64,000 bases of DNA from Patescibacteria group bacterium (GTDB taxonomy: Bacteria > Patescibacteriota > Doudnabacteria > UBA920 > O2-02-FULL-48-8). Each line of letters begins with the position of its first letter. Positions within the stretch are counted from its first letter, which is position 1. Shown in pieces: positions 14,376 through 47,198 of the stretch. A model generated the notes under the pieces. The model was not told the origin of the DNA, ran no database searches, and saw only the letters and a list, made by a program, of their open reading frames with translations. The stretch lies in the NCBI GenBank assembly GCA_036278915.1, contig DASUKB010000002.1, positions 95,162 through 159,161 on the forward strand, given 5' to 3'. A program made the position numbers and the translations under genes.

Positions 14376-15701
14376 AGTTTGCACTAATTTATGTAATTCT
14401 TCGCGTACAATAGTTCGTTCGTCCCAGGGTATCGCACCGTTTTTCGTCATCATGGTCTGCTCTGCTCCTTTGCCTGCAATGATTAGGACATCCCCCGCTT
14501 TTGCCAGCGATAGGGCCTTGGCAATGCCGCCGCGGCGATCCGGATTGCGGAATAGTGTTTGCCCGATGATTTTGCCGTGCGCTACGGCCGCGTCTGCTAT
14601 TTCGTGAATTATATCCTGCGGATTATCATCGTAGGGGTCTTCGTTAGTGACCACAACGAGATCCGATTTTTTGGCGGCGGTTTCGCCCATTTGCGCTCGT
14701 TTGGCGCGGTCGCGTCCCCCGCCCTGGCCGCCGGTGACTAGGATAACGCGATTTGTCCCTGCAATTTTTCTGGCTGCATCAAGTACGGTGTTTAGGCTTA
14801 AATTTTCGTGAGCATAGTCCACGATCACCGTGAAATTCTGACCTTCGTCGATTTTTTCCATGCGACCAGGAATTATTTTTACATTGGAAATCCCTGTCCT
14901 GGTGGCATCTCCTTGAAGTTTAAGCGTTTCAGCCAAAGCCAAAGCTGGCAGCGCGTTGTAGACATTAAATTTTCCGAGCACCGAGAGATGCGCTGGTTTA
15001 TTTTTTACATCAAAATCCACACCCTCCGAGGTTTCCCGAATATTTTCCGCAACGATGTCCGCTTTTGGATTTAAGCCGTAAGTAATTTTCAAATCAGCTG
15101 GAAAATTGTAAAAGAATTCTTTGCGGGGATCGTCGTAATTTATAATACTCACCCGCTTTACGTACTTGCCATTCAGTTGTTTGGCGTTTTCCATGAGCGA
15201 TGCAAACAATTTGCCCTTGGTCTGTTTGTAATTGTCAAAACTTCCGCCGTGCGATTCCAAATGTTCGGGTGAAAGATTTGTAAACACCGCACAATCAAAG
15301 ATAATTCCCACGTGGCGGTACATCAGAATCCCCTCGCTCGTTACCTCAAGCACCGCGTGCGTACAGCCGGAGTGAACCATTTCCGAAAGCATCTTCTGCA
15401 GCCGGAACGGCCCGGGCATGGTCATATGCATATTATTGAGCAGTTCCCTGTCCCCTAACTTTAGATTTGCTGTGCCAATTTGTCCTGTTTTGAATCCGGC
15501 AGCCGTGAGTACGCTCCAAATGAAATTCGCAGATGACGTTTTACCTTTTGTGCCGGTAATCCCAATGACGTACATTTTCCTGGACGGATTGCCATACAGT
15601 ATGCAGGCCGCTCGCGCCAACAAATAATGGTAGGTCTGAAGCACAAACTTTGGCGTCAGCTTTCTGATGATTTTTTTTAATTTATGCAATGTGTTCATCA
15701 A
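14373..15701 (-). CDS. Mur ligase family protein (MurE-like)
   Basis: GITGTKGKTS P-loop of Mur ligases, DYAHE motif, C-terminal Mur ligase domain; lies inside the IR-bounded cassette. Confidence 0.7.
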   Translation of the reverse strand: MMNTLHKLKKIIRKLTPKFVLQTYHYLLARAACILYGNPSRKMYVIGITGTKGKTSSANFIWSVLTAAGFKTGQIGTANLKLGDRELLNNMHMTMPGPFRLQKMLSEMVHSGCTHAVLEVTSEGILMYRHVGIIFDCAVFTNLSPEHLESHGGSFDNYKQTKGKLFASLMENAKQLNGKYVKRVSIINYDDPRKEFFYNFPADLKITYGLNPKADIVAENIRETSEGVDFDVKNKPAHLSVLGKFNVYNALPALALAETLKLQGDATRTGISNVKIIPGRMEKIDEGQNFTVIVDYAHENLSLNTVLDAARKIAGTNRVILVTGGQGGGRDRAKRAQMGETAAKKSDLVVVTNEDPYDDNPQDIIHEIADAAVAHGKIIGQTLFRNPDRRGGIAKALSLAKAGDVLIIAGKGAEQTMMTKNGAIPWDERTIVREELHKLVQT

Positions 15702-16998
15702 AGTCGCGATATCCGGCTATAAGGCCCAAACTTAAGAAGAAAAGTAATTGTCCCTGCTGAATTGTAACAAGAAAATGGTCAAACAGCGACATAATCAGCA
15801 AACTGCCGCCTAAAATTAATAATGTGAAACGCAAAAGCGTCGGCGAAGAAGCTGCCAGCCGAACTGCAATGACAATCAAATAGCTTAAGAACAATATCAA
15901 TCCCAAAATTCCCATGCTGGCTGCAATGTAAATAAAAATATTATGCGGTGGCTGATAATCCCAAGGTTGCATGTTAAACTTGGTAACCATGGTTTGGATG
16001 TAATTGCCTAAACCTGTACCCCATGGGTGATTTCGTAAAATCTGTAATCCAATATTGTTGTAGGTCCCGCGATCTATATATGAATTCGTACTGGAGATAT
16101 TGGAAACTCGGCCAAATAGCAAGTTGTGCCAGGAGACAAGGATTATGAAACAAGAAATTACAGCAGAAGTTATTATTTGCACATAAATTCTCCATTTTGT
16201 CAAGGAAAAGTTATAAATTATATAAATTAGGGTTGTCAGAGCTGCAATTAGCCAAGACACTCGTGAAAAGCTTAGAAATATTCCCACGATAAGTAAAATG
16301 CTTCCAATCCCCAATAAAATACGGGTGTTTTGGTTTGTTTCACGTGAGACATACCAATATCCCATAATTAAACTCAAGCATAAAAATGCGCCGAATATAT
16401 TGGGATGGGGGAATGTACCGTAGGCTCGAATGACTTTACCACCCATAAAATCCAAAGTAGCTAATCCGCCTGTTCCCAAAGGAGCAATATATTCGCCTAA
16501 GAGACGCAATCCGATATCGTGTTGCATATGAAACTGGATTATTCCAAGTACAGCTTGAAAAATTCCAGATAGATACAATATGCCAGCTGTAATTCGGAAG
16601 AACATAAGATTTCGGAACGTACTGGCCACATAAAAGACCAGAAATATAAACTCAACCAGTTTAAATAAGCTATAAACTTCAAAAAAACTGTGTTGCACAT
16701 GCAACCAGCCAATTAATGATGTGAATATTAAGCCTAATGTAAGCCAAAAGATGGGATTACGTAAGTTTAACGTTGTTTTAAAAGTTTTTATGTTTTCCAC
16801 AAGAAACGCTACGAAACAGCAGATCAATAAAAGATCAGAAATATATAAGAAAATTGCCAAGTACGAAGAAAAATAGCCGTGAATGTAAGCTGATTCTGGT
16901 TGGTAGATTACACGCAGGTTAAAAGGAATGGTTATTAGAAAAGCCCAAAAAAATATCTGATTAATTTTTTGAGCTTTAATAATTGACAAAATAGACAT
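15682..16998 (-). CDS. O-antigen ligase/polymerase (Wzy_C/WaaL) family membrane protein
   Basis: ~11-12 predicted TM helices with a large periplasmic loop; markedly AT-rich (~33% GC) versus ~48% in surrounding genes. Confidence 0.55.
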   Translation of the reverse strand: MSILSIIKAQKINQIFFWAFLITIPFNLRVIYQPESAYIHGYFSSYLAIFLYISDLLLICCFVAFLVENIKTFKTTLNLRNPIFWLTLGLIFTSLIGWLHVQHSFFEVYSLFKLVEFIFLVFYVASTFRNLMFFRITAGILYLSGIFQAVLGIIQFHMQHDIGLRLLGEYIAPLGTGGLATLDFMGGKVIRAYGTFPHPNIFGAFLCLSLIMGYWYVSRETNQNTRILLGIGSILLIVGIFLSFSRVSWLIAALTTLIYIIYNFSLTKWRIYVQIITSAVISCFIILVSWHNLLFGRVSNISSTNSYIDRGTYNNIGLQILRNHPWGTGLGNYIQTMVTKFNMQPWDYQPPHNIFIYIAASMGILGLILFLSYLIVIAVRLAASSPTLLRFTLLILGGSLLIMSLFDHFLVTIQQGQLLFFLSLGLIAGYRDFDEHIA

Positions 16999-28823: not shown

Positions 28824-30986
28824 ATGGCTCGCAGACGAAACCAAACTCAAACCAGCCAGGTTGCTTTTAAACGGCCGCAGCTCAATCTCAAAAAAGAAAC
28901 GCGAATCGGCGTGGCTGTGGTCTTTTTCATTGTGCTGGCGATTTTGTTTACGCTTAGCTTATTTGGTGCGGCGGGTAAATTCGGCGAAGTAGCCAACGAT
29001 GTGCTCAAACTGGCTTTCGGCTGGGTGGCCTATGTCGTGCCAGTTATATTTTTGATGGTCGCGGTGGCTCTGATGCGCCGCAACGACGAACAGGAAGCCA
29101 ACACGGTTTCGACTCACGCCTATGTCGGCGCCGTACTTTTGACTTTGACTCTGACTGGTTTTTTGCACCTGTTGGTGATCCGGACCAATGTCGACGCGGC
29201 TTTTGATTTGGTGCGTGCCGGCCGCGGCGGCGGTTACCTGGGGGTTCTGACTTCCTACCCGCTTATGCGCGTGGCTGGATTTGTTGCCACACTTGTGATT
29301 TTGGTGGCGGGCATCATTATTAGTTTATTTGTGACATTTAATATTTCTTTCATGTCGCTCTTCCGTAAAAAACCAGCGGGCGAGCAGGCTGGAAAAATTG
29401 CTCCTAAGCCTTTGAAAATCAACAATGCCGCAGTGGCCGGATTTACCAAAGAGCCCGTGGACAGCCGGGCGAACAAACCTTCCGAAGTCGTGGTCAACAC
29501 GCCTTCCGATGACAAGCCTTTGATGAAACTCAACACAAGACCGCCGGCCGCGGACAAGAATTGGAAATTTCCGCCTATAGATTTGTTGGACGATGCCAAA
29601 ACGCGCGTGGATTCCGGCAATATCGAAGCTAATGTTTCGATCATCCAAAAAACTTTGTCGGATTTTGGTATTGAAGTAGAGATGGGCGAGGTCAATGTCG
29701 GCCCGACCGTGACCCAGTACACGCTGCGGCCGGCCACGGGCGTGAAGCTGTCGCAAATCGGCGCGCTCCAAAACGATTTGGCGCTGGCTCTGGCCGCTTC
29801 AAGCATCCGCATGGAGTTGCCAATTCCCGGCAAGGGATTAGTCGGCCTTGAGGTTCCAAACAAGTCCAATGCCACTGTCCGCATCCGCGAGATTATTTCC
29901 TCCTCTGTATTTGCAGAAAGCTCATCGAAACTGGCATATTCGCTTGGCCGCGACGTAGCCGGACATCCCATAATTGCTGATTTGTCCAAAATGCCTCATT
30001 TGCTGATTGCCGGCGCCACGGGCTCGGGCAAATCCGTGGGCGTCAATTCCATGCTTATAAGTTTCCTGTACCGGGCCACGCCCTCGGAAGTGAAAATGAT
30101 TTTGGTGGACCCCAAGCGCGTGGAACTATCCATGTACAACGGTCTGCCGCATTTGCTGACGCCGGTAATCACCGACCATCAGCAAGCCGTAAATGCTTTG
30201 CGCTGGACAGTGCTTGAGATGGATCGCCGCTACAAAATGCTCCAGGAAGTCCATAAGCGCAACATTGGCGAATTCAACCAATCGAGTCTTATAAAGATGC
30301 CGTACTTGGTAGTGGTTGTTGATGAATTGGCGGACCTTATGAGCGTGGCGCAAAACGAAGTTGAGGCAGCCATTGTCCGTCTGGCGCAAATGGCCCGCGC
30401 CGTAGGCATTCATTTGGTGCTGGCCACACAGCGGCCGAGCGTGGACGTCATCACGGGTTTGATTAAAGCCAACATCACCGCGCGCATGGCGTTTGCCGTG
30501 GCATCGCAAGTGGATTCGCGCACTATCTTGGATATGTCGGGCGCGGAAAAATTGCTCGGCCAAGGCGATATGCTCTATATAACTTCCGATCTGCCCAAAC
30601 CCAAGCGCGTGCAGGGTACGTATGTCGGCGAAAAGGAAATCCAAAAAGTTACGGAGTTTATCAAAGAACAAGCCGGGGACGTAATCTACGACGAACAGAT
30701 TTTGGAAAAACCGGCACGTGCAAGCGGCGCACCGGGTTATGATTCGGACGGCGACGAAGATGAATTGATGCAAGAAGCAACACAGATTGTGCAACAAGCC
30801 GGCAAGGCATCGGCATCACTGCTGCAGCGAAGGTTGCGCGTGGGATATGCGCGCGCCGCAAGACTTCTGGATATAATGGAAGAAAAAGGAATTGTCGGTC
30901 CGGCCGACGGCGCCAAACCGCGTGAAGTTTATGGTACTCAAGGTTCCGGCGAGAACGGCGAATCAACTATTGATGATTTCCAGTAA
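28824..30986 (+). CDS. ftsK: DNA translocase FtsK/SpoIIIE
   Basis: N-terminal TM domain, GATGSGKS Walker A, C-terminal gamma (winged-helix) domain. Confidence 0.95.
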   Translation: MARRRNQTQTSQVAFKRPQLNLKKETRIGVAVVFFIVLAILFTLSLFGAAGKFGEVANDVLKLAFGWVAYVVPVIFLMVAVALMRRNDEQEANTVSTHAYVGAVLLTLTLTGFLHLLVIRTNVDAAFDLVRAGRGGGYLGVLTSYPLMRVAGFVATLVILVAGIIISLFVTFNISFMSLFRKKPAGEQAGKIAPKPLKINNAAVAGFTKEPVDSRANKPSEVVVNTPSDDKPLMKLNTRPPAADKNWKFPPIDLLDDAKTRVDSGNIEANVSIIQKTLSDFGIEVEMGEVNVGPTVTQYTLRPATGVKLSQIGALQNDLALALAASSIRMELPIPGKGLVGLEVPNKSNATVRIREIISSSVFAESSSKLAYSLGRDVAGHPIIADLSKMPHLLIAGATGSGKSVGVNSMLISFLYRATPSEVKMILVDPKRVELSMYNGLPHLLTPVITDHQQAVNALRWTVLEMDRRYKMLQEVHKRNIGEFNQSSLIKMPYLVVVVDELADLMSVAQNEVEAAIVRLAQMARAVGIHLVLATQRPSVDVITGLIKANITARMAFAVASQVDSRTILDMSGAEKLLGQGDMLYITSDLPKPKRVQGTYVGEKEIQKVTEFIKEQAGDVIYDEQILEKPARASGAPGYDSDGDEDELMQEATQIVQQAGKASASLLQRRLRVGYARAARLLDIMEEKGIVGPADGAKPREVYGTQGSGENGESTIDDFQ

Positions 30987-31210: not shown

Positions 31211-32242
31211 ATGTGCAAAAAGTGCAACAATTCAAAATATATGGAAAAACAAGAAAATAAGGGTGAAATCATCATATACAAGTCAGATTCTGGTCCAGAG
31301 CTTCAAATAAAACTGGAGAACGATTCGGTTTGGCTGACACAGGCTCAAATGGCTGAGCTGTTTGATAGGGACAGGGATACTATTTCGGAGCATATTCAGC
31401 ATGTCTATAAAACCGCAGAACTAAGCCCAAATTCAGTTACCCGGAAATTCCGGGTAACTGCCCGTGATGGTAAAAGCTATAATGTTGAGCACTATAATCT
31501 CGATATGATTATCTCGGTGGGTTATCGGGTGAATTCCAAACGTGGCACACAGTTTCGTATCTGGGCAACTAAACACCTTCGTGGTTATTTGCTTAAAGGT
31601 TATTTGATAAACGAGAGAAGGTTGCGGGAAAATCAGGATGCCAAATTAAAAGAATTACAACAAGCACATCTTTTGATTCAACAAGCGCTTGAAAGCAGAC
31701 GGTTGGATGGATTTGAAAAGGAATTGGTTAACATCATCACTGATTATACAAATACCTGGATTGTGCTCAACGAGTACGACAGTGGAAAGCTGAAAATTTC
31801 TGATGTCAGTAAAAACAAGACGAGCTATTTGGATTTTGGAAAGGTCACGGATTCCGTAAGTCGTTTTAAAAACAGACTGCAGGCAAACAAACTGGCAACA
31901 GCTGATTTTGGGAAACCAAATGGAAACAAACTGCAAAAGATCCTGACCCGCGTCAAACAAAATTTGGATGGGGTTGATGTTTATCCTTCAGCCGAAGAAA
32001 AAGGCGCGCACTTATTTTATTTTCTCATTTCAGAAAAACCGTTTGCCGACGGCAATAAACGTATCGCATCTCTAATTTTTATTTTATTCCTCATTGAAAA
32101 TCATTTGTTGTACAACCGCAAAGGCGAGCGCCGCATTAACGATTCAGCATTGGCCGCGCTGGCGTTGCTTGTGGCTGAATCCAAACCGTCGCAGAAGGAT
32201 GTCATGGTAAAATTAATTGTGAATTTGATAAATAAAAAGTAA
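31211..32242 (+). CDS. RhuM-family virulence-like protein fused to a Fic/Doc (death-on-curing) domain with an atypical motif
   Basis: N-terminal WLTQAQMAELF...YNLDMIISVGYRVNSKRGTQFRIWAT (RhuM family); C-terminal KPFADGNKRIA aligns to the Doc HxFx(D/N)GNKR motif but with Lys in place of the catalytic His; low GC (~40%). Confidence 0.7.
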   Translation: MCKKCNNSKYMEKQENKGEIIIYKSDSGPELQIKLENDSVWLTQAQMAELFDRDRDTISEHIQHVYKTAELSPNSVTRKFRVTARDGKSYNVEHYNLDMIISVGYRVNSKRGTQFRIWATKHLRGYLLKGYLINERRLRENQDAKLKELQQAHLLIQQALESRRLDGFEKELVNIITDYTNTWIVLNEYDSGKLKISDVSKNKTSYLDFGKVTDSVSRFKNRLQANKLATADFGKPNGNKLQKILTRVKQNLDGVDVYPSAEEKGAHLFYFLISEKPFADGNKRIASLIFILFLIENHLLYNRKGERRINDSALAALALLVAESKPSQKDVMVKLIVNLINKK

Positions 32243-36200: not shown

Positions 36201-36367
36201 AGCGGTAGAACAAATGTCTTACCCGCCCGACCGAACGACTTTATGGGCATGTAGCTCAGCGGTAGAGCAAATGTCTTATACACATTGGGTCCCTGGTTCG
36301 AATCCAGGCATGCCCACCATAATTTCAATCAATCGTTCGGTCGTTCGGAATCCTTCCTGGCCCACCA
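36201..36367 (+). other. Composite tRNA-Ile locus: 21-nt 5' fragment homologous to D-loop-to-anticodon of tRNA-Ile (36201-36221), arm CCCGCCCGACCGAACGAC, intact tRNA-Ile(TAT), arm GTCGTTCGGTCG..., 3' fragment TTCGGAATCCTTCCTGGCCCACCA
   Basis: AGCGGTAGAACAAATGTCTTA matches AGCGGTAGAGCAAATGTCTTA within the intact tRNA; arms are mutually complementary; the 5' arm begins CCCGCCCGAC, as at the Arg locus. Confidence 0.6.
36245..36319 (+). tRNA. tRNA-Ile (anticodon TAT)
   Basis: Acceptor GGGCATG/CATGCCC, anticodon loop CTTATAC, T-arm CCTGGTTCGAATCCAGG, CCA encoded. Confidence 0.75.
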
Positions 36368-40234: not shown

Positions 40235-40296
40235 TTACCTTTCTATTTGACTCAACTTGAAAAAAAACCAGGATTGTTGTATAGTAATCTTGGCTT

Positions 40297-41613
40297 TTGG
40301 ACATGTTTGAAATCAAAATGAACAGAAAATACTATATAATTGGCGGCGTCATTTTATTTTTGATTATTATCATAGTTGTTTTGCTCGTGGCCACAAGTGG
40401 CAAAAAGCCGCAGGCTGCCGGGCCAATCACGCTGACTTGGTGGAAAACTTTTGAGACCTCGGACAACGTCCAGCAATTGATTGCCGATTATGAAAAAACT
40501 CACAAGAATGTCACAATAAATTACGTCAAAAAAGACGAAACCACCTATGAACAGGACTTGCTTGAGGCTTACGCCTCGGGTACGGCTCCGGATATTTTAT
40601 CCATCCACAATGATTGGCTGCCGCAGGAAGCAGACAAACTAGCACCTGATCCAACCGGCGATGTTCGCAGCTATAAAACGACATTTGTAGATGTGGCTGC
40701 GGATGATTTCATAAAAGACAATCAAATTTTTGCCGTACCTATGAACGTTGATGTCATGGCGTTGTACTACAACAAAGACATCCTCAACTCCGCTAACGTC
40801 CTGCCACCTAAAACCTGGAGTGAGTTGGTCTCTGACGTTCCGAAGATTACTCAACTCACAAAACCCGGGACTTTTACGCGATCGGGAATTGCGTTTGGGA
40901 CTGCGGCCAATGTTAACCGCGCTGTAGATATCATGTCTCTGCTTATGTTGCAAAATGGTACGCAATTTTATAACGATTCCTACTCAGGCGCTACATTTGA
41001 TCAGACTCAAACAAGTGCAGGCGGGGACAGCGTCAACCCTGGCGCCGTGGCGCTCCAATACTACACGCAGTTTGCAGACCCAGCCAAAACCGTTTACACC
41101 TGGAATGCCCGCTCCGATAACAATGTTGACTCTTTCACACAAGGCAGGGTGGGTATGATGCTATCGTATTTTTACATGGAACCGCAGATCCAATCCAAAG
41201 CGCCCACGCTCAATTGGGACGTGGCGCCCGTACCCCAGCCTTCAACTGACAGCGTGCAAATTAATTTTGCCAATTATTGGGGCGAGGCCGTGAATAAAAA
41301 TTCTCCAAATGTGCAAGCGGCCTGGGATTTCTTGAATTTTATAACCAGCCATGATGAATTGAGCGCATATTACAAGCAACACCAGTTGGTGTCTTCGCGC
41401 AAGGACATTTTACAGACTCAAATGTCGGACCCGACACTTGGGGTTTTTGCCGAAGAAGCGCTGAGCGCGAAGTCCGTATACAAAAAAGACGCGGACGGAT
41501 TTGAAACAGTGTTTTCCAAAATGATAGACGATGTCTCGCAGCGCGGACTCACGCCGGAAGAAGCGGCTACTAACGCGGCACAGCAGATAGACTTGCAATT
41601 GCAGCAGCATTAG
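40297..41613 (+). CDS. Extracellular solute-binding protein (ABC transporter SBP family 1, sugar-type) with N-terminal TM anchor
   Basis: TM helix followed by a ~400-aa periplasmic-binding-protein-like domain (LTWWKT..., ALYYNKD motifs). Confidence 0.65.
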   Translation: MDMFEIKMNRKYYIIGGVILFLIIIIVVLLVATSGKKPQAAGPITLTWWKTFETSDNVQQLIADYEKTHKNVTINYVKKDETTYEQDLLEAYASGTAPDILSIHNDWLPQEADKLAPDPTGDVRSYKTTFVDVAADDFIKDNQIFAVPMNVDVMALYYNKDILNSANVLPPKTWSELVSDVPKITQLTKPGTFTRSGIAFGTAANVNRAVDIMSLLMLQNGTQFYNDSYSGATFDQTQTSAGGDSVNPGAVALQYYTQFADPAKTVYTWNARSDNNVDSFTQGRVGMMLSYFYMEPQIQSKAPTLNWDVAPVPQPSTDSVQINFANYWGEAVNKNSPNVQAAWDFLNFITSHDELSAYYKQHQLVSSRKDILQTQMSDPTLGVFAEEALSAKSVYKKDADGFETVFSKMIDDVSQRGLTPEEAATNAAQQIDLQLQQH

Positions 41614-41646: not shown

Positions 41647-42042
41647 ATGAAAGCAAAAACAAAGATTATATCGATCGTATTGCCTTGGATTTTGGCTTAC
41701 CATTCTGTACTGGCCAAGCCATTTGTGGGACCTTTGGTCCAATGCGGAACGGGAAAAAATTCGGAATGCACTTCTGCGGACTTGCTTAATCTCGTCTTCA
41801 TTGTCATAAATTTTTTGGTTGGGTCTGCGGCAATATTGGCCATGGCCTATATAGTTTACGGCGGCATCCAAATGGTTATCTCATCCGGCAATGAAGATGG
41901 TGTGAAGAAAGCCAAAAGCACAATGGTTAATGCCATAATCGGCTTAGTGATGGTTATCCTATCCTATCTTATAATCACCTCCATAACGTCCTACTTTACC
42001 GGCCAGTCATTCGACACCTTGCAGAAATCATTGTCGCTATGA
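41647..42042 (+). CDS. TrbC/VirB2-like small pilin family protein, paralog 1
   Basis: Signal peptide plus two hydrophobic helices with the shared core AILAMAYIVYGGIQMV..GNE...KKAKST.VNAIIGLV.VILSY.II. Confidence 0.5.
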   Translation: MKAKTKIISIVLPWILAYHSVLAKPFVGPLVQCGTGKNSECTSADLLNLVFIVINFLVGSAAILAMAYIVYGGIQMVISSGNEDGVKKAKSTMVNAIIGLVMVILSYLIITSITSYFTGQSFDTLQKSLSL

Positions 42043-42650
42043 ATTTTCTCTCCATCCCGAATTGGATTGTTTCCGCTAGCGCCGCGCCTTGTATGCCGAG
42101 CGGGGGGAGTTTATGCAACCCCTTGCAAGGCGGCGTCAACGTTCCAGATGTGCCAACTCTTTTGACCCATGTTTTGAATGACCTCGGGGGAGTGATCGGT
42201 CTGGTAGCTATTGCCATGGTGGTGTACGCCGGGTTTCGCATGGTGACGGCCAATGGCGAACAGCACTCAATTGATAAAGCCAAACAGATTTTGAAGTATT
42301 CGGTGTACGGGTTCGTGGCATCCGTGATGGCTTACGCCGCTGTAGTGGCGGTGGAAAATTTTATCGGCGTGCAGGACCCAAACTACGACAGCTCTCAGCC
42401 TCAAAATCCTCTCCAGCAGTTTGGCAACCTCAAAGTCTTTACCGAGCAGATGATCCAAAATATCTTACTGGTTATCGGAGCTGTATCTCTGCTCATGATT
42501 ATAATTAACGGCTTCCGGTATATGACAGCCCGTGGTAATGACGAACAGGTGAGTACGGCCAGGCGTGCTCTGACCTGGGCCATAGCCGGACTGGCGATAT
42601 CTTTATTTGCGTATACAATAGTAAGCGCTGTAGCAAAACTAATTTCATGA
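42039..42650 (+). CDS. TrbC/VirB2-like pilin family protein, paralog 2 (two tandem copies of the core domain)
   Basis: Core motif present twice (VVYAGFRMVTANGEQ... and IINGFRYMTARGNDEQ...); 4-nt overlaps with neighbours. Confidence 0.5.
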   Translation: MNFLSIPNWIVSASAAPCMPSGGSLCNPLQGGVNVPDVPTLLTHVLNDLGGVIGLVAIAMVVYAGFRMVTANGEQHSIDKAKQILKYSVYGFVASVMAYAAVVAVENFIGVQDPNYDSSQPQNPLQQFGNLKVFTEQMIQNILLVIGAVSLLMIIINGFRYMTARGNDEQVSTARRALTWAIAGLAISLFAYTIVSAVAKLIS

Positions 42651-42997
42651 AAAAAATCACAAAATTTGTTTCCTGGTTGACTTCTGGACTCATATTTATG
42701 GCTGTGACTGTGAAAAACCCCGCGCCGGGTTTATTCAGCGATCTTTTTGGCGATAGTCCGGAGATCAAAAATATTATTCCTCAGATTATCTCCATAGTTT
42801 TGGGATTTGCTGGACTCGTGGCCATAGCTTATGTCATTTTGGGGGGATTTCAGCTGGTTACTTCGCGCGGCAGTTCTGAACAAGCCGAAAAGGGGCGCAA
42901 AACGTTAACAAATGCTATAATAGGTCTAGTCATCATTATACTGTCATATGTAATTGTCAGTATTGTGACTAATGCCGCATTTGGCAATGTTGGATAA
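42647..42997 (+). CDS. TrbC/VirB2-like pilin family protein, paralog 3
   Basis: AIAYVILGGFQLVTSRGSSEQ...TNAIIGLVIIILSYVIVSIVTN. Confidence 0.5.
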   Translation: MKKITKFVSWLTSGLIFMAVTVKNPAPGLFSDLFGDSPEIKNIIPQIISIVLGFAGLVAIAYVILGGFQLVTSRGSSEQAEKGRKTLTNAIIGLVIIILSYVIVSIVTNAAFGNVG

Positions 42998-43083
42998 TTA
43001 ATTAATTTAATCAACAATTCAAAGGTCGAAGAAACAAAAGATCCGCCTACGCATAAAGCTTTGGCGGACAGGAAGGAATAAAT

Positions 43084-43470
43084 ATGAAAAAATACTCACA
43101 TAAAATAGCTCAAATTGGTTCAGTAGTTTTGGGGTTTGTGGTTGCCTTAAGTCCGATGTTGGCATTTGCCCAGTTGCATTTGCCTGATGCCGGCGGTACT
43201 GGTTTGTCCAATACCTTCGGTGGTGCGACCACGCTTTCCGGATTGATTTTGGAAGTGATTAATATTATCCTCGCTCTTGCCGGTTTGATCGCTGTGCTTA
43301 TTCTTATAATCGGCGGTTTCCGCTACGTCACAAGTTTTGGCAACGAAGAGGCTGTAGGCAAAGCCAAAAAAATGATCATCAACGCCATTATCGGCATTAT
43401 CATCATCATCTTGGCATTTGTGATCGTACGCGTGGTGACCAACGTCTTTATCAACCCAAGCAATATCTAA
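43084..43470 (+). CDS. TrbC/VirB2-like pilin family protein, paralog 4
   Basis: Signal peptide (AFA-QL); ILIIGGFRYVTSFGNEE...INAIIGIIIIILAFVIVRVVTN. Confidence 0.5.
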   Translation: MKKYSHKIAQIGSVVLGFVVALSPMLAFAQLHLPDAGGTGLSNTFGGATTLSGLILEVINIILALAGLIAVLILIIGGFRYVTSFGNEEAVGKAKKMIINAIIGIIIIILAFVIVRVVTNVFINPSNI

Positions 43471-43471
43471 G

Positions 43472-43855
43472 ATGTTCAAACTGAAAAGATTAAAATATTC
43501 ATTGCTATCACTGGCGCTTGCTTTTCCAGGAATTGCGTTCGCGGCCGCGAGTCAGATCATCAACTCCAACGACAACCCGGGCGGCATTCTGCCTACAGGT
43601 ATTTTTGGTCACCAAGCAACAATCGGCGGAACAATTCTTGGGATCATTCAAATACTTCTGGGGATAGTTGGGTTAATCTCTGTGGCTATGATTATTTACG
43701 GTGGCTTCCGTTATACAACTGCGGGTGGCAATGATGAAGTCACGAAGTCGGCCAAGAAAACTATTATCAATGCTATTATTGGTCTCGTGATTGTAATTTT
43801 GTCGTATGTCATCGTGACAATTGTCACAAATCTCGCATTCGGTACTGTCGGTTGA
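43472..43855 (+). CDS. TrbC/VirB2-like pilin family protein, paralog 5
   Basis: Signal peptide (AFAAA); MIIYGGFRYTTAGGNDE...INAIIGLVIVILSYVIVTIVTN. Confidence 0.5.
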   Translation: MFKLKRLKYSLLSLALAFPGIAFAAASQIINSNDNPGGILPTGIFGHQATIGGTILGIIQILLGIVGLISVAMIIYGGFRYTTAGGNDEVTKSAKKTIINAIIGLVIVILSYVIVTIVTNLAFGTVG

Positions 43856-43913
43856 TTTTCCCAAAAAAATGAGCCGGGAACCTGTAAACAGGTCCCGGCT
43901 TTTTGGTTGCCCA

Positions 43914-44828
43914 TCATCTGCTTGCCACTTGCAGAAATAGGGGATGTCCGTCGGTGTAGTAATCGGAGCGAATCGTAACGAAGCTTTGAAAAAGCAATCG
44001 TCCGTCCGCGGTTTTGAATTTGAGCAGGTATGAGCCTGCCTCAATTCTGTACCCGTCGTTGAACCAGTTGTTGTGCTTGGTCACGGGCCCTTCGTCCGAC
44101 TCAATGGCGGAAAGCACTTTGCCGTTGCGCGGGTCCACGGGCATGGAATACATGCTTACGTCAGTGGAGTCAGGCAAGCCCGCAGCTTGAAGCCTTGAAC
44201 GTACCAGGCGAACCGTCGTCTGGTAGTCAATCTTGACCTTGCCCATAACACAGCGTCTGTTGCCCGGGAAGTCCTGGCACGGCTCCGGCGATAGGATCTG
44301 GTAGCCGTAGTAGCCGCCGCCATAGACTCTGGCACCACGGGCGTAGCCGTAACCGTAAACCGAGTAATTCTCCTGCGCCCGTTCCATACGGTTGCAGTAG
44401 ACGTACTGGTCCGGCGTTCCGGGAAACGGCCCGCTTTGGATGCAGGCTTGGAATGGATTGTACACCCTAGGTGCGGCTGCTACGATCCGTGTAGAAGGAT
44501 GATCTGCAACTGCTGTTTCGGTTCTGGCGGGCTGCGGATTCGTGAGCCGGATGTGAATCTTGTCGCCGGAAATGCGAGCTTCGAACCCTAGCGGCGAGAG
44601 GATCCGTGCCAGCGCGGCGTCCAGGGAGAGTCCACGCACGTCGTTGGTGACAGCGAGATCTTCCATGGGTGAATCCGGCACGACGAAGTACGGGTGATTC
44701 GGATCGCTGAAGTGATGCGCGATCGCCACGACTGCTACGGAAAGCGGCGTGCGGTTGAACTGCAACGATTGAGCCTGCGCGTTTGCCGCCCACACCAGGA
44801 CCGCCATCAACACGATAAATTTTTTCAT
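43914..44828 (-). CDS. Secreted hypothetical protein with Gram-negative-type signal peptide and STN-like N-terminal domain; Gly/Tyr-rich segment
   Basis: MKKFIVLMAVLVWAANAQA signal; GC ~58%; YGYGYARGARVYGGGYYGYQ low-complexity segment. Confidence 0.4.
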   Translation of the reverse strand: MKKFIVLMAVLVWAANAQAQSLQFNRTPLSVAVVAIAHHFSDPNHPYFVVPDSPMEDLAVTNDVRGLSLDAALARILSPLGFEARISGDKIHIRLTNPQPARTETAVADHPSTRIVAAAPRVYNPFQACIQSGPFPGTPDQYVYCNRMERAQENYSVYGYGYARGARVYGGGYYGYQILSPEPCQDFPGNRRCVMGKVKIDYQTTVRLVRSRLQAAGLPDSTDVSMYSMPVDPRNGKVLSAIESDEGPVTKHNNWFNDGYRIEAGSYLLKFKTADGRLLFQSFVTIRSDYYTDGHPLFLQVASR

Positions 44829-44934
44829 AAACCCCTCCTTGGGGCGTATTGGTTACAAAGGATTTGTAACTTAGTATACTACCACAAATTTGAGTTTTTG
44901 TCAATGCTAGTAAATAAAAAATGGATACGGCCCC

Positions 44935-45768
44935 TTAGGGTCGTATCCATTGAATATGTGGTTGATCTGATTGCGTTTTGGCGCGCCCAGACTGTGTTTG
45001 TTTGTCCTCCTTGAGATTTGGCGCAGGGCTGTCGGCTGGATCCGTCAGCGCCGTGAACGTGAAATTTCCGCGGTCGTGGTGGTTGGATTGTCCTGTACCT
45101 TCCCAACCGCGACACCAGTAGGGGATGTTCACGATGACCTGAAAGTCGTGTCCCGAATACGGCACCGGATGACAGCCGCTGTGGATGACAAACGTCTTGT
45201 TGACGTCGTGGTCCACGCGTCCCAGGAAAGCCATCATTGGAAAGCGATGGTCAAACGGCTCGTACGCATCGATAGACGAAACGTCAGCGCCATCGGGGCT
45301 AATGTCTATGACCTGCCCCTCCTGCTCGTACATGACGTTTTGGACGACACCGCTGGCGCAAAGGACTTCGCCTTCAAAAAGGTCCGTGAAGGTATCCGTC
45401 CAGTAGGCAAGCCTTGCGTCCACGCTTGTGACTGGTCCCTGGTGCACCCTACGCCCTTTGGCATCGGCTTTTAGCTTTTCTAAGGCCACAACCGTTGAGC
45501 GCGATTTGTACGCGTCTGTCTTTAGCTCATCGTACAACACCGCACCCGGATCGTCTTTCTTGGCAATTTCCGCGGCGTCTTTGGACCCAATAACCTCGCC
45601 CATGTGGTTGCCGATGGCTTTTTGTACTTGCCTCCCGCGTTGATTGATTTGTCGCAACACGGGAAACTGAGGATCAGTGAAGCCAAACTCCTGCCAATCC
45701 ACGCCGTAGGTGTAAACAAGAAAGAGGATTGTACCGACCAGCCCGATCCAGCCGAGCTTGGATCTCAT
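44935..45768 (-). CDS. Hypothetical protein with N-terminal TM anchor (GC-rich island)
   Basis: ORF in a GC-rich block; 4-nt overlap with the upstream gene. Confidence 0.4.
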   Translation of the reverse strand: MRSKLGWIGLVGTILFLVYTYGVDWQEFGFTDPQFPVLRQINQRGRQVQKAIGNHMGEVIGSKDAAEIAKKDDPGAVLYDELKTDAYKSRSTVVALEKLKADAKGRRVHQGPVTSVDARLAYWTDTFTDLFEGEVLCASGVVQNVMYEQEGQVIDISPDGADVSSIDAYEPFDHRFPMMAFLGRVDHDVNKTFVIHSGCHPVPYSGHDFQVIVNIPYWCRGWEGTGQSNHHDRGNFTFTALTDPADSPAPNLKEDKQTQSGRAKTQSDQPHIQWIRP

Positions 45769-46550
45769 TTTTTACCTCCCTTATCATCAGACTTCTTCTG
45801 TTCTTGAGGTCCCGAAAGCAGCATAACCATCCAGAATAGAATTGCCAGAATGGTCATCAAGCCCGGGCCAAGGGCAATTGCTCGAGTGTAGGCAATGTTC
45901 GCAATCCGTGAAATTGGGTTGAAAACGAAACTACCCGTGATGATGAGCCATGGTATGGCAAGCAGGCCCGCGAACCAAGCAGTGGGTGAGCCTTGACCCC
46001 ACTTCGTTGACGAAAGCACGAGGATAATCGTGAGAAGCAACCATATGCCAGCCCATGAGCTCTGGCCCCAGAGTTCTGCAAAAGAAAGAAAAGCAATTAT
46101 GCAGAGTTCGGCCAGAACAGCCCAGAAAGTCCATCTGGCGGCTTCCTTCAGAGTCTGCATTTGCCGAGCGCGCTCGAAGTTCAGATCGTAGGTCACGTCG
46201 ATATGGTCTTCGTGATGTACTGCCTTGGGTGTGAAGCCTCGATCTTTTGTGAAAAGATCAAAGAGGGCATCCACTGCAACCATAAACAGCGCAATCTCAG
46301 CAGAATCAGGATTGATCAGGATCAAGGCGGCAATCGGCAGATAAAGGAACGCGGTGTAAGGAACCAACATTTTGTCGATGAGGTTCACAAGTACCGCTAA
46401 TCCCAAAACCAGGAATGACCAGACCAGAAACAATAGTACTCGTCTAGTCAAAGTCTTGATCGTGTTCAGGCTCCAGTCCTTGCCCGCTCCAAAGATTTGG
46501 GCGGTCAGATGACCGGATTCAGGAAGGGGATTGGCGTCTCTCGTAGGCAT
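45765..46550 (-). CDS. Hypothetical polytopic membrane protein (GC-rich island)
   Basis: 6 or more hydrophobic helices; Lys-rich C-terminus. Confidence 0.4.
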   Translation of the reverse strand: MPTRDANPLPESGHLTAQIFGAGKDWSLNTIKTLTRRVLLFLVWSFLVLGLAVLVNLIDKMLVPYTAFLYLPIAALILINPDSAEIALFMVAVDALFDLFTKDRGFTPKAVHHEDHIDVTYDLNFERARQMQTLKEAARWTFWAVLAELCIIAFLSFAELWGQSSWAGIWLLLTIILVLSSTKWGQGSPTAWFAGLLAIPWLIITGSFVFNPISRIANIAYTRAIALGPGLMTILAILFWMVMLLSGPQEQKKSDDKGGKK

Positions 46551-46574
46551 CGAAAACTCCTGAAGTTGTTGGGG

Positions 46575-47198
46575 TTAGTTTTTCTGCCAGCCGAAGATGT
46601 AGCGAAACACGCTTCCACCGTAGCGCGCAGTTTGTTTTATACGATACCGCTCTCGGCGAAGTTTGATCTCGTCTGCCTTCAACATGAAGAAATCACCTAG
46701 TGCTTGGCCTTGTGATGCAAGTTGCTCCGTTGTGGTTTTTGCACGGGAACCAATATAGAGAGATTTTTTTAGAACTTTGCGTCTCTCGTCATCACTTGGT
46801 AACCCGGCCAAGTATTGCAGAAATGCCACTCGCTGTTTTGCCGCTTCGTCTCCCTTGCCTGTTTTAGCAGTATGGACGACGAATTCAGCATCTTCTTCGT
46901 CGGAAAGGTTGCTTAGGAATTGTCGGATGGTCTCTTCGCTTTTGGCATCAGAGAGCTTCAGTTGAGTTATGGCCATGACAAAATCGTGTCGGTCGCCACC
47001 TGTTGCCTCAACTTTTCCCTCAACCTCCCGCGAAGTTTTTTGTTCGAGGGGGTTTGAAATGAGACCCCCGAAGATACCTTTGAGGGCGCTTTTGATGAGT
47101 TGCTCAATGCCTGACCAGAGACCTAGGGCAAACAGTGTGTTGATCAGGTGACCTTCACCTACGGTGACGCTGTTTTTTGGATCTTGCGGAATTTCCAT
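46575..47198 (-). CDS. Hypothetical protein (GC-rich island)
   Basis: ORF, first gene of a four-gene minus-strand block. Confidence 0.4.
   Translation of the reverse strand: MEIPQDPKNSVTVGEGHLINTLFALGLWSGIEQLIKSALKGIFGGLISNPLEQKTSREVEGKVEATGGDRHDFVMAITQLKLSDAKSEETIRQFLSNLSDEEDAEFVVHTAKTGKGDEAAKQRVAFLQYLAGLPSDDERRKVLKKSLYIGSRAKTTTEQLASQGQALGDFFMLKADEIKLRRERYRIKQTARYGGSVFRYIFGWQKN

What the first reader, a model, noticed from the sequence alone, without database searches (positions are those of the whole stretch)
41647..43855. Tandem array of five TrbC/VirB2-like small pilin paralogs, one internally duplicated
Five consecutive genes overlap by 4 nt or are spaced less than 90 bp apart. They encode 116-203-aa proteins with signal peptides and a shared two-helix core: ...G(L/V)IA(I/V)..(I/V)(I/Y)GG(F)(R/Q)(Y/L)(V/T)(T/S)..G(N/S)(D/E)E...(A/S)KK.(I/L)(I/T)NAIIGL(V/I)I(I/V)ILSY(V)IV... 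Paralog 2 carries the core twice. The N-terminal regions are divergent while the C-terminal helix is nearly invariant, a pattern typical of surface-exposed, diversifying pilin or adhesin arrays. The array sits between a sugar-type solute-binding protein and a GC-rich island. No VirB4/VirD4 ATPase is in the window, so its function may be independent of a conjugation apparatus.
Basis: partly seen in the sequence, partly recalled or inferred. Interest (0 to 1): 0.7.

Follow-up and report, generated by a model that had tools for sequence, protein, structure and literature searches.

The report
Five-gene VirB2-like pilin array, Patescibacteria
This is a real operon of five small pilin-like membrane proteins in an ultrasmall Patescibacteria bacterium; such pilin arrays have already been described and shown to be essential in a cultured relative, so this is a new example, with unusual gene neighbours, of a known kind.

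Summary
Five same-strand genes (41647-43855) overlap by 4 nt or lie 1-86 nt apart. Each encodes a signal-peptide-like N-terminus, a variable stretch and a two-helix hydrophobic hairpin. The second gene carries two hairpins.

All five pass the Pfam gathering score for PF18895 (T4SS_pilin). Four reach the NCBIfam cut-off for the Mycoplasma-ICE pilin-like family NF045849. The classical TrbC/VirB2 model PF04956 is not reached.

The organism is a Patescibacteria MAG, and GenBank already names gene 2 'pilin'. Arrays of 2-11 such genes in Patescibacteria are published (PMC12102498), and one is essential in Southlakia epibionticum (PMC10633639). The finding is therefore a new member of a known kind.

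What I add:
- The five positions are orthologous across divergent relatives, so the array is old and its members are non-redundant rather than a recently diversifying set.
- The two-domain pilin at position 2 is conserved in 10 other loci.
- In about 45 related loci the array sits directly downstream of a carbohydrate-type solute-binding-protein gene, inside a conserved housekeeping neighbourhood and far from virB4.
- In about 20 Saccharimonadales loci it instead abuts VirB4-PrgI-VirB6-like genes.

Whether this genome has a VirB4 machine could not be tested.

The parts
40257..40285 (+). Promoter-like site (TTGAAA-17-TATAGT) upstream of the SBP gene; a possible start of the SBP-pilin operon
   Evidence: Consensus scan, 10 of 12 matches. 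The number of such sites in the region is not above the shuffled expectation, so this is only a candidate.
40318..41613 (+). Membrane-anchored, carbohydrate-type solute-binding protein, probably co-transcribed with the array (the ORF can extend upstream to 40297)
   Evidence: SBP_bac_8 at 2.5e-35 and SBP_bac_1 at 4.2e-33. Only weak NCBIfam matches to GanS, MalE and UgpB. An SBP gene lies directly upstream on the same strand in 38 related loci, with a median gap of 28.5 nt and overlaps in five. No ABC permease was found in the window.
41647..42042 (+). p1: T4SS_pilin paralog, 131 aa, with a Cys-x7-Cys pair after the signal peptide
   Evidence: PF18895 at 33.1 bits against a 26.6-bit cut-off. 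NF045849 at 31.1 bits, below its 40-bit cut-off. Position-1 orthologs in L002 and L003 keep the Cys pair.
42039..42650 (+). p2: two-domain (tandem) T4SS_pilin, 203 aa. Hairpin 1 is about aa 38-109, hairpin 2 about aa 131-202, joined by a hydrophilic linker of about 20 aa. It overlaps p1 by 4 nt.
   Evidence: PF18895 at 65.9 bits with two stretches; PF04956 at 23.1 bits, below cut-off. NF045849 at 51.7 bits. The AF2 model has four helices, but at low confidence (pLDDT 60.7). Two-domain orthologs sit at position 2 in L002, L003, L006-L008, L010, L012, L013, L017, L020 and L021. GenBank names it 'pilin'.
42647..42997 (+). p3: T4SS_pilin paralog, 116 aa; overlaps p2 by 4 nt
   Evidence: PF18895 at 40.4 bits. 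NF045849 at 41.0 bits. Orthologs are 44-55% identical.
43084..43470 (+). p4: T4SS_pilin paralog, 128 aa. It follows an 86-nt gap, has its own AGGAAGGA ribosome-binding site, and is the best conserved position, so it is a candidate major subunit.
   Evidence: PF18895 at 45.9 bits. NF045849 at 40.2 bits. Orthologs are 55-65% identical to the window gene and 76% identical between L002 and L003. Upstream sequence read.
43472..43855 (+). p5: T4SS_pilin paralog, 127 aa
   Evidence: PF18895 at 44.4 bits. NF045849 at 42.4 bits. AF2 model with pLDDT 82.8: a signal-peptide helix at aa 3-24 and a hairpin formed by helices 51-83 and 88-123. It is identical to a GenBank Patescibacteria MAG protein, locus tag VFX17_02960.
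43861..43906 (.). Bidirectional intrinsic-terminator hairpin between the convergent p5 and d1 genes. An A-run precedes it and a U-run follows it.
   Evidence: RNA fold of -26.1 kcal/mol, z-score -4.8, with none of 200 shuffles folding as well.
43914..44828 (-). d1: secreted protein of unknown function, convergent with the array. It is a conserved neighbour in related five-gene arrays; membership of the system is not shown.
   Evidence: Homologs lie directly downstream of the arrays in L006 and L017. Its C-terminal domain is distantly related to the equivalent gene in L002, L003, L007 and L013 (hhalign probability 87%, E 3.7e-6). No Pfam or NCBIfam family passes threshold.

Best explanation
The five genes encode subunits of the VirB2-like 'T4SS_pilin' family (PF18895) of Patescibacteria. 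They are probably transcribed as one operon with the upstream solute-binding-protein gene and end at a strong terminator.

**Shown.** Family membership, gene layout, hairpin architecture, position-specific orthology and the conserved neighbourhood.

**Inferred mechanism.**
1. Each precursor is inserted by Sec and its signal peptide is cut off.
2. The mature protein sits in the cytoplasmic membrane as a two-helix hairpin. The variable N-terminal stretch and the C-terminus face outwards. The conserved G-N-D/E-E ... K-K loop is on the cytoplasmic side.
3. A VirB4-PrgI/VirB3-VirB6-type machine, encoded elsewhere in the genome, extracts the subunits and assembles them into an extracellular filament or conduit. 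This structure is used in the contact-dependent, host-dependent lifestyle.

**Roles of the five subunits.** Each position has been kept as its own ortholog over large divergence, so the five are most likely non-redundant parts of one structure rather than interchangeable variants. On this reading:
- p4 is the candidate major subunit.
- p1 and p2, which carry Cys pairs, are specialised.
- p2 is a covalent tandem dimer with four membrane helices and both ends outside.
For: **Family.**
- All five pass the PF18895 gathering score, and p2 does so with two domains.
- p2-p5 reach the NF045849 cut-off.
- GenBank names p2 'pilin'.
- Many relatives carry both PF18895 and PF04956 hits.

**Architecture.**
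- Signal-peptide-like N-termini and two hydrophobic helices.
- The AF2 hairpin model of p5 has pLDDT 82.8.
- The p2 model has four helices.

**Link to the T4SS.** In about 20 Saccharimonadales loci, arrays of the same family lie back-to-back with VirB4 (P-loop_TraG/AAA_10), a PrgI-like gene and a large polytopic VirB6-like gene. The published survey and Tn-seq work show that such arrays belong to an essential T4SS cluster (PMC12102498; PMC10633639; PMC12857230).

**Non-redundancy.**
- Ortholog identity by position is 29-65%, against 18-41% between paralogs.
- The same five-gene order, with a two-domain gene at position 2, occurs in 10 other loci.
- No DNA-level repeats link the paralogs.

**Outward-facing N-terminus.** 82 longer relatives carry the pilin domain at the extreme C-terminus, behind N-terminal extensions.

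**Operon.** 4-nt overlaps between genes, small SBP-to-p1 gaps across 38 loci, and a terminator after p5.
Against: - No VirB4, VirB6-like, PrgI or c16 gene is present in the 64-kb window or in 21 related 20-kb loci of the same context type.
- I could not show that this genome has a T4SS at all. The VirB4 search listed only the top 120 hits, all from a Microgenomates-like lineage.
- PF04956 is not reached.
- A profile search found no solved-structure relative. Fold searches were non-specific, because a helical hairpin matches thousands of chains.
- The p2 model has low confidence, and p2 lacks a canonical signal peptide.
- No pilus built from these proteins has been seen in any Patescibacterium (review PMC12857230, states this as a possibility only).
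- The assignment of major and minor subunits rests only on conservation and a ribosome-binding site.
Confidence: 0.6

Rival explanations
1. Variation array. The five genes are alternative major pilins, each able to build the filament alone. They are kept to widen host range or to vary the surface, as proposed for the VirB2 paralogs of Bartonella and Anaplasma and suggested for Patescibacteria.
For: The published interpretation offers this for Patescibacterial arrays (PMC12102498). The outward-facing N-terminal stretch is the most variable part, at 15% identity.
Against: - Each position has its own ortholog in divergent genomes, in the same order.
- Nothing points to recent duplication or gene conversion.
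- Array size is stable at 5-7 genes across 81 loci.
- The conserved two-domain member and the Cys-pair members point to fixed, distinct roles.
Confidence: 0.15
2. T4SS-independent module. In this lineage the array works with the co-transcribed membrane-anchored solute-binding protein, for example as a membrane or cell-surface scaffold or channel for capturing host-derived carbohydrate. It does not need VirB4.
For: - An SBP gene lies directly upstream on the same strand in 38 loci, at a median gap of 28.5 nt and with overlapping stop and start codons in five.
- The pairing persists in L022, L033 and L045, where the rest of the upstream neighbourhood differs.
- The window has no ABC permease.
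- No T4SS gene lies within 10 kb in any locus of this context type.
Against: - The whole ComM-GalU-SBP-array-FtsH-RNase III-SMC region is syntenic, so the adjacency may simply be inherited gene order.
- The same protein family is physically linked to VirB4 in Saccharimonadales.
- About 40% of assemblies that have both VirB4 and pilins keep them apart.
- At least one assembly that GTDB classes as Doudnabacteria has VirB4.
Confidence: 0.12
3. Not pilins at all. They are small secreted effectors, or holin- or bacteriocin-like membrane peptides. The TM7x counterparts were first annotated as Sec-secreted putative effectors.
For: Earlier TM7x work called the equivalent genes putative effectors (bioRxiv 10.1101/2022.03.25.485537). 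No solved structure or direct observation ties PF18895 to a filament.
Against: - Two long hydrophobic helices make a soluble effector unlikely.
- The profile hits are to pilin families, and only sub-threshold noise goes to other families.
- No lysis, immunity or bacteriocin-export genes lie nearby.
Confidence: 0.05

Closest known systems
VirB2-like pilin arrays of Patescibacteria (PF18895 T4SS_pilin): the essential pilin series in the Southlakia epibionticum ML1 T4SS cluster, the array in Nanosynbacter lyticus TM7x, and the 441 arrays surveyed in PMC12102498
   Same: - Same Pfam family and same phylum.
- Tandem arrays of sequence-divergent, structurally alike subunits. Within-array identity here is 18-41%, against a published mean of 25% and maximum of 54%.
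- Signal peptide plus a two-helix hairpin.
   Different: - Here the array is not in a T4SS cluster. It follows a solute-binding-protein gene inside a housekeeping neighbourhood.
- One member is a two-domain tandem pilin.
- Two members carry a Cys pair.
- I found neither the SBP linkage nor the two-domain form mentioned in the main text of PMC12102498.
Classical conjugative pilins: VirB2 (Agrobacterium T-pilus), TrbC (RP4) and TraA (F), Pfam PF04956 TrbC/VIRB2
   Same: Small precursors with a cleaved leader and a hydrophobic helical hairpin, used by a VirB4-powered machine. There is weak profile similarity: p2 scores 23.1 bits, and several relatives carry both Pfam hits.
   Different: - Below the PF04956 gathering score.
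- A longer variable N-terminal stretch.
- Five paralogs rather than one gene.
- The host is a monoderm.
- No adjacent virB genes, and no evidence for cyclisation or for a VirB5 tip protein.
Mbov_0395 / MMCAP2_0565 pilin-like conjugal-transfer protein of Mycoplasma ICEs (NCBIfam NF045849)
   Same: p2-p5 reach this model's curated cut-off, at 40.2-51.7 bits against 40. Both occur in wall-poor or monoderm lineages whose T4SS is of the MPF-FATA type.
   Different: In the ICEs it is a single gene inside a mobile conjugative element. Here it is a chromosomal five-gene array, with no relaxase, coupling protein or element borders in the window. p1 falls below the cut-off.
Major and minor (pseudo)pilin sets of type II secretion and type IV pili (one major plus four minor subunits)
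   Same: Analogy only: a fixed set of about five non-redundant paralogous subunits, encoded in a row and conserved position by position.
   Different: An unrelated fold and leader. There is no prepilin-peptidase motif and no N-terminal single hydrophobic helix with a globular head. The assembly ATPase is also different.

Membership tests
Pfam PF18895 T4SS_pilin | Score at or above the curated gathering cut-off of 26.6 bits | tested here: met
   p1 33.1, p2 65.9 (two stretches), p3 40.4, p4 45.9 and p5 44.4 bits. The precomputed PF18895 hit is also listed for all five on the identical Logan contig.
Pfam PF18895 T4SS_pilin | Architecture: N-terminal leader, then two hydrophobic helices joined by a short polar loop | tested here: met
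   Hydropathy and alignment. AF2 model of p5 with helices at 3-24, 51-83 and 88-123, pLDDT 82.8. The p2 model has two such hairpins, but at low confidence.
Patescibacterial VirB2-like pilin array (as in PMC12102498) | Two or more pilin genes in tandem, or separated by one non-pilin gene, in a Patescibacteria genome | tested here: met
   Five adjacent genes. The organism is named 'Patescibacteria group bacterium' in GenBank. The nearest loci are Candidatus Doudnabacteria and Saccharibacteria MAGs.
Patescibacterial VirB2-like pilin array (as in PMC12102498) | VirB4-type T4SS present in the same genome | not testable with these tools
   None in the 64-kb window. The rest of the 206-kb contig and of the MAG could not be reached. 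The VirB4 profile search listed only its best 120 of at least 7765 hits, none from this MAG.
Pfam PF04956 TrbC/VIRB2 pilin | Score at or above the gathering cut-off of 27.9 bits | tested here: not met
   Only p2 appears, at 23.1 bits (E 8.7e-5). The other four have no hit at E <= 1.
Pfam PF04956 TrbC/VIRB2 pilin | Encoded within a virB/trb/tra operon next to VirB3/VirB4 | tested here: not met
   The neighbours are ComM, a GalU-like gene, an SBP, unknown genes, FtsH, RNase III and SMC. Lineage-specific HMMs for VirB4, VirB6-like, c16 and PrgI find nothing in the window.
Pfam PF04956 TrbC/VIRB2 pilin | Polymerises with phospholipid into an extracellular pilus; some members are cyclised | not testable with these tools
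   This needs biochemistry or cryo-EM. No relative is found among solved structures by profile search.
NCBIfam NF045849 Mbov_0395 family pilin-like conjugal transfer protein | Score at or above the curated cut-off of 40 bits | tested here: inconclusive
   p2 51.7, p3 41.0, p4 40.2 and p5 42.4 bits pass, three of them barely. p1 fails at 31.1 bits. The model is typed 'equivalog' for a Mycoplasma ICE protein, and no ICE context is present here.

The most novel reading that the evidence does not exclude
In a Doudnabacteria-like branch of Patescibacteria, the pilin array has left the T4SS cluster and become a fixed SBP-plus-five-pilin operon. Its five non-redundant subunits, one of them a covalent tandem dimer, build a heteromeric surface filament or conduit. 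This structure works together with the membrane-anchored, permease-less carbohydrate-binding protein to take nutrients from the host. That would be a nutrient-uptake use of VirB2-type pilins, and it may not need VirB4.
Probability: 0.1. Interest if true: 0.7.

Novelty: new member of a known kind. Interest (0 to 1): 0.33.

Why it matters
Patescibacteria make up a large share of bacterial diversity and live attached to host cells. Their T4SS and its pilin series are essential in the one species tested genetically. Nobody yet knows what the pilins build or why there are several.

This locus adds nothing categorically new. The comparison it prompted does give three testable leads:
- The subunits are position-specific orthologs, which argues for a multi-part structure rather than surface variation.
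- A tandem two-domain pilin is conserved.
- In one large lineage the array is coupled to a solute-binding-protein gene rather than to virB4. This fits the published speculation that the structure serves uptake from the host.

Tried and rejected
**Fold and structure searches**
- Foldseek against the PDB with the p5 model gave no match at E <= 0.001.
- A profile built from 48 family members, searched against all PDB sequences, gave no hit even at E <= 10.

**Looking for VirB4 in the same MAG**
- I searched the 5.8-billion-protein set with a VirB4 alignment, hoping to see the MAG's VFX17_ locus-tag prefix among the hits. Only the best 120 of at least 7765 hits were listed, all Microgenomates-like. 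The question stays open.
- The exact-sequence look-up of p5 returned only a 9.3-kb Logan contig, not the 206-kb GenBank contig. I could not walk beyond the window.

**Artefact**
- An apparent SBP-pilin fusion ORF in L035 would have been strong evidence for a functional link. It turned out to be an artefact of a run of N in the scaffold.

**Downstream genes**
- The downstream genes d1-d4 are not obviously homologous to the equivalent blocks in L002 and L003 by BLAST.
- Only d1 could be linked. It has direct homologs in L006 and L017 and a distant profile match to the L002/L003 version.
- d2-d4 have no relatives in the fetched loci and no Pfam or NCBIfam family.

**Readings rejected**
- Recent duplication or gene conversion: no long DNA repeats link the paralogs.
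- A mobile conjugative element: the window holds only housekeeping genes, with no relaxase or coupling protein. The FtsK at 28824-30986 is a full chromosomal FtsK with its alpha and gamma domains.

**Promoter and terminator scan**
- Site counts were not above the shuffled expectation.
- The scan also missed the real terminator after p5, which I found by eye and confirmed by folding.
Full report
**1. The observation**

The ORF list shows five + strand ORFs at exactly the reported coordinates:
- p1: 41647-42042, 131 aa
- p2: 42039-42650, 203 aa
- p3: 42647-42997, 116 aa
- p4: 43084-43470, 128 aa
- p5: 43472-43855, 127 aa

p1/p2 and p2/p3 overlap by 4 nt (ATGA). p3/p4 are 86 nt apart and p4/p5 are 1 nt apart. 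Alignment and hydropathy analysis show that each protein has three parts:
- a signal-peptide-like N-terminus, with AFA|Q in p4, AFA|A in p5 and VLA|K in p1;
- a variable stretch of about 25 residues;
- two long hydrophobic helices joined by a conserved loop, G-G-F-R/Q-Y-x-T-S-x-G-N-D/E-E ... A-K-K, followed by N-A-I-I-G-L.

p2 carries this core twice.
- Over all six domains, mean pairwise identity is 15% in the variable stretch, 34% in helix 1, 36% in the loop and 39% in helix 2. The 'nearly invariant' last helix is a property of p3, p4 and p5 only.
- The two halves of p2 are about 31% identical, no closer than any other pair.
- p2 has only a short, uncharged leader.

**2. What the proteins are**

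- All five exceed the Pfam gathering score for PF18895 (T4SS_pilin). They score 33.1, 65.9, 40.4, 45.9 and 44.4 bits against a 26.6-bit cut-off, and p2 matches in two stretches.
- The classical TrbC/VIRB2 model PF04956 appears only for p2, and below threshold (23.1 against 27.9 bits).
- In NCBIfam, p2-p5 reach the 40-bit cut-off of NF045849, the 'Mbov_0395 family pilin-like conjugal transfer protein' of Mycoplasma ICEs. p1 does not.
- An AlphaFold2 model of p5, built on a 48-sequence alignment, has mean pLDDT 82.8. It shows the leader helix (3-24) and a hairpin of helices 51-83 and 88-123.
- The p2 model has low confidence (pLDDT 60.7) but shows four helices: 38-70, 75-109, 131-163 and 168-202. 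This fits a four-pass membrane topology with both ends and the 20-residue linker outside.
- Fold and sequence searches of solved structures were uninformative.

**3. The organism and the window**

p5 and p2 are identical to proteins of a GenBank 'Patescibacteria group bacterium' MAG (locus tag VFX17_02960, on a 206-kb contig). GenBank already names p2 'pilin'.

The genes I scanned across the window are housekeeping genes or have no family match. The housekeeping genes include TyrRS, RuvC, GyrA, S1, a Mur ligase, IF-2, FtsK, RecA, LexA, ComM, FtsH, RNase III, SMC, TrmD, RNase Y and NusA. The window also holds 14 tRNA genes.

No ORF matches VirB4, VirD4, VirB6 or PrgI. This holds with Pfam and with HMMs I built from Patescibacterial T4SS genes found next to related arrays.

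**4. What is already known**

- Quinonero-Coronel et al. 2025 (PMC12102498) used PF18895 and PF04956 to survey 3,035 Patescibacteria genomes.
  - They found VirB2-like pilins in 1,948 assemblies that also have VirB4, with the pilin gene near virB4 in 1,135 of them.
  - They found 441 arrays of 2-11 pilin genes. Mean within-array identity was 25% and the maximum was 54%.
- Wang et al. 2023 (PMC10633639) showed by Tn-seq that the pilin series inside the T4SS cluster of Southlakia epibionticum is essential for epibiotic growth.
- A 2025 review (PMC12857230) raises the possibility of a pilus-like conduit for uptake from the host.
- The TM7x counterparts were earlier called putative effectors.

The window's array has 18-41% pairwise identity and fits this description. 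It is therefore a further member of a known kind.

**5. What the comparison adds**

*5a. Position-specific orthology.* Two divergent relatives (L002 and L003) have the same five-gene array. Each window gene is most similar to the gene at the same position:

| Position | Identity to the window gene |
|---|---|
| p1 | 29-32% |
| p2 | 32-38% |
| p3 | 44-55% |
| p4 | 55-65% |
| p5 | 50-55% |

Between paralogs within the window, identity is 18-41%.
- The Cys pair after the leader in p1 and p2 is conserved.
- No DNA repeat longer than 39 nt links the paralogs.
- The array therefore predates the split of these genomes, and its members are kept as distinct genes. This argues against a recently diversifying or interchangeable set.
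- p4 is the best conserved position (76% identity between L002 and L003). It is also the only gene with a clear ribosome-binding site after a gap, which makes it a candidate major subunit.

*5b. The two-domain gene.* A scan of species-representative genomes returned 79 loci. An HMM search of their ORFs found a two-domain pilin as the second gene of the array in L002, L003, L006-L008, L010, L012, L013, L017, L020 and L021. Arrays of 5, 6 or 7 genes make up 67 of the 81 loci. In 82 longer relatives the pilin domain is at the extreme C-terminus, behind an N-terminal extension. This is consistent with an outward-facing, variable N-terminal part.

*5c. Two genomic contexts.* Clustering of the neighbouring genes and Pfam scans of cluster representatives separate two contexts:
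- **SBP-linked context.** The gene order is LspA, (LexA), ComM, a GalU-like nucleotidyltransferase, a solute-binding protein, the array, a variable minus-strand block, FtsH, a membrane protein, RNase III and SMC.
  - About 45 loci, including the window, have this order.
  - The SBP gene lies directly upstream on the same strand in 38 of them.
  - The median SBP-to-array gap is 28.5 nt, with overlapping codons in five loci.
- **T4SS-linked context.** VirB4, c16, a PrgI-like gene and a VirB6-like gene are read divergently from the array, with Hsp20 downstream. About 20 loci, mostly Saccharimonadales, have this order.

No locus of the SBP-linked type has a T4SS gene within 10 kb. The SBP-array pairing persists in L022, L033 and L045, where the rest of the upstream neighbourhood differs. 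The window holds no ABC permease.

**6. Operon limits**

A promoter-like site precedes the SBP gene (40257-40285), but this is weak evidence. A strong hairpin lies between p5 and the convergent gene d1, flanked by A- and U-runs (43861-43906). It folds at -26.1 kcal/mol, z-score -4.8, and is a bidirectional terminator.

**7. The downstream 'island'**

Four minus-strand genes (d1-d4, 43914-47198) have no family assignment. Their GC is 0.57, 0.54, 0.50 and 0.48, against 0.475 for the window. RecA, at 0.53, is in the same range.

d1 is a secreted protein.
- It has homologs in the same position in L006 and L017.
- It has a distant profile match to the equivalent gene of L002, L003, L007 and L013 (hhalign probability 87%).

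At least d1 is therefore a conserved neighbour rather than a recent insertion. d2-d4 are unexplained.

**8. Mechanism and confidence**

- Membership of PF18895 is secure.
- The idea that these proteins are assembled by a VirB4-type machine into an extracellular structure is inferred from three things: family membership, the physical linkage in Saccharimonadales, and the published essentiality data.
- It is not shown for this genome, whose T4SS status I could not determine. One assembly that GTDB classes as Doudnabacteria is listed as VirB4-positive in Table S1 of PMC12102498.
- I rate the main explanation at about 0.6. The rivals are a variation array (0.15), an SBP-coupled T4SS-independent role (0.12) and non-pilin small proteins (0.05).

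**9. Verdict**

The feature is real and correctly recognised as pilin-like, and it is ordinary for this phylum. Novelty: a new member of a known kind. Interest is modest (0.33). It comes mainly from three leads that emerged from the comparison: the conserved SBP coupling, the tandem two-domain pilin, and the position-specific orthology.

Noticed in passing
window 43914-47198 (- strand): Four genes of unknown function sit between the array and tRNA-Leu/FtsH: d1 (304 aa, secreted), d2 (277 aa, N-terminal anchor), d3 (261 aa, polytopic) and d4 (207 aa, soluble). None has a Pfam or NCBIfam family. d1 and d2 are GC-rich (0.57 and 0.54). Relatives L002 and L003 carry a block with similar architecture at the same place, but only d1 shows detectable homology.
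   Followed up: partly
window 40318-41613, and 38 related loci: A membrane-anchored, carbohydrate-type solute-binding protein with no ABC permease in the window lies immediately upstream of the pilin array. It is probably co-transcribed with it. The pairing is conserved even in a few loci where the rest of the upstream neighbourhood differs.
   Followed up: partly
window 43861-43906: A strong bidirectional terminator hairpin (-26.1 kcal/mol, z-score -4.8) lies between the convergent p5 and d1 genes. The consensus terminator scan missed it.
   Followed up: yes
L035 1533-3005: An apparent 490-aa SBP-pilin fusion ORF is an artefact of a run of N (a scaffold gap or masked stretch). It is not a real fusion.
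   Followed up: yes
L068 9836-18748; L016 6333-7424: A 2970-aa ORF carries a pilin-like domain near its N-terminus, and a 363-aa ORF carries three pilin domains. Many related arrays also hold 250-390-aa members with a C-terminal pilin domain behind a large N-terminal extension. Some of these lengths may be inflated, because ORFs were called from the first possible start codon.
   Followed up: no
window 15682-16998 (- strand): A Wzy_C (O-antigen ligase-like) gene has a much lower GC (0.364; GC3 0.367) than the rest of the window (0.475). It may have been acquired horizontally.
   Followed up: no
window 36245-36319: A tRNA-Ile with anticodon UAU (tat) is present. This is the less common way of reading AUA, without a lysidine-modified CAU tRNA. 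The window holds 14 tRNA genes in all.
   Followed up: no
window 31211-32242: A RhuM-family/Fic-domain protein lies among housekeeping genes, between FtsK and a RodZ-like gene.
   Followed up: no
L023, L057, L063, L065, L066, L074, L081 (upstream of the arrays): In Saccharimonadales the array is read divergently from a conserved block: a VirB6-like protein of about 940 aa, a PrgI-like protein, c16 (about 275 aa, no family) and VirB4. An Hsp20 gene always lies downstream. c16 and the large polytopic protein have no Pfam match.
   Followed up: partly
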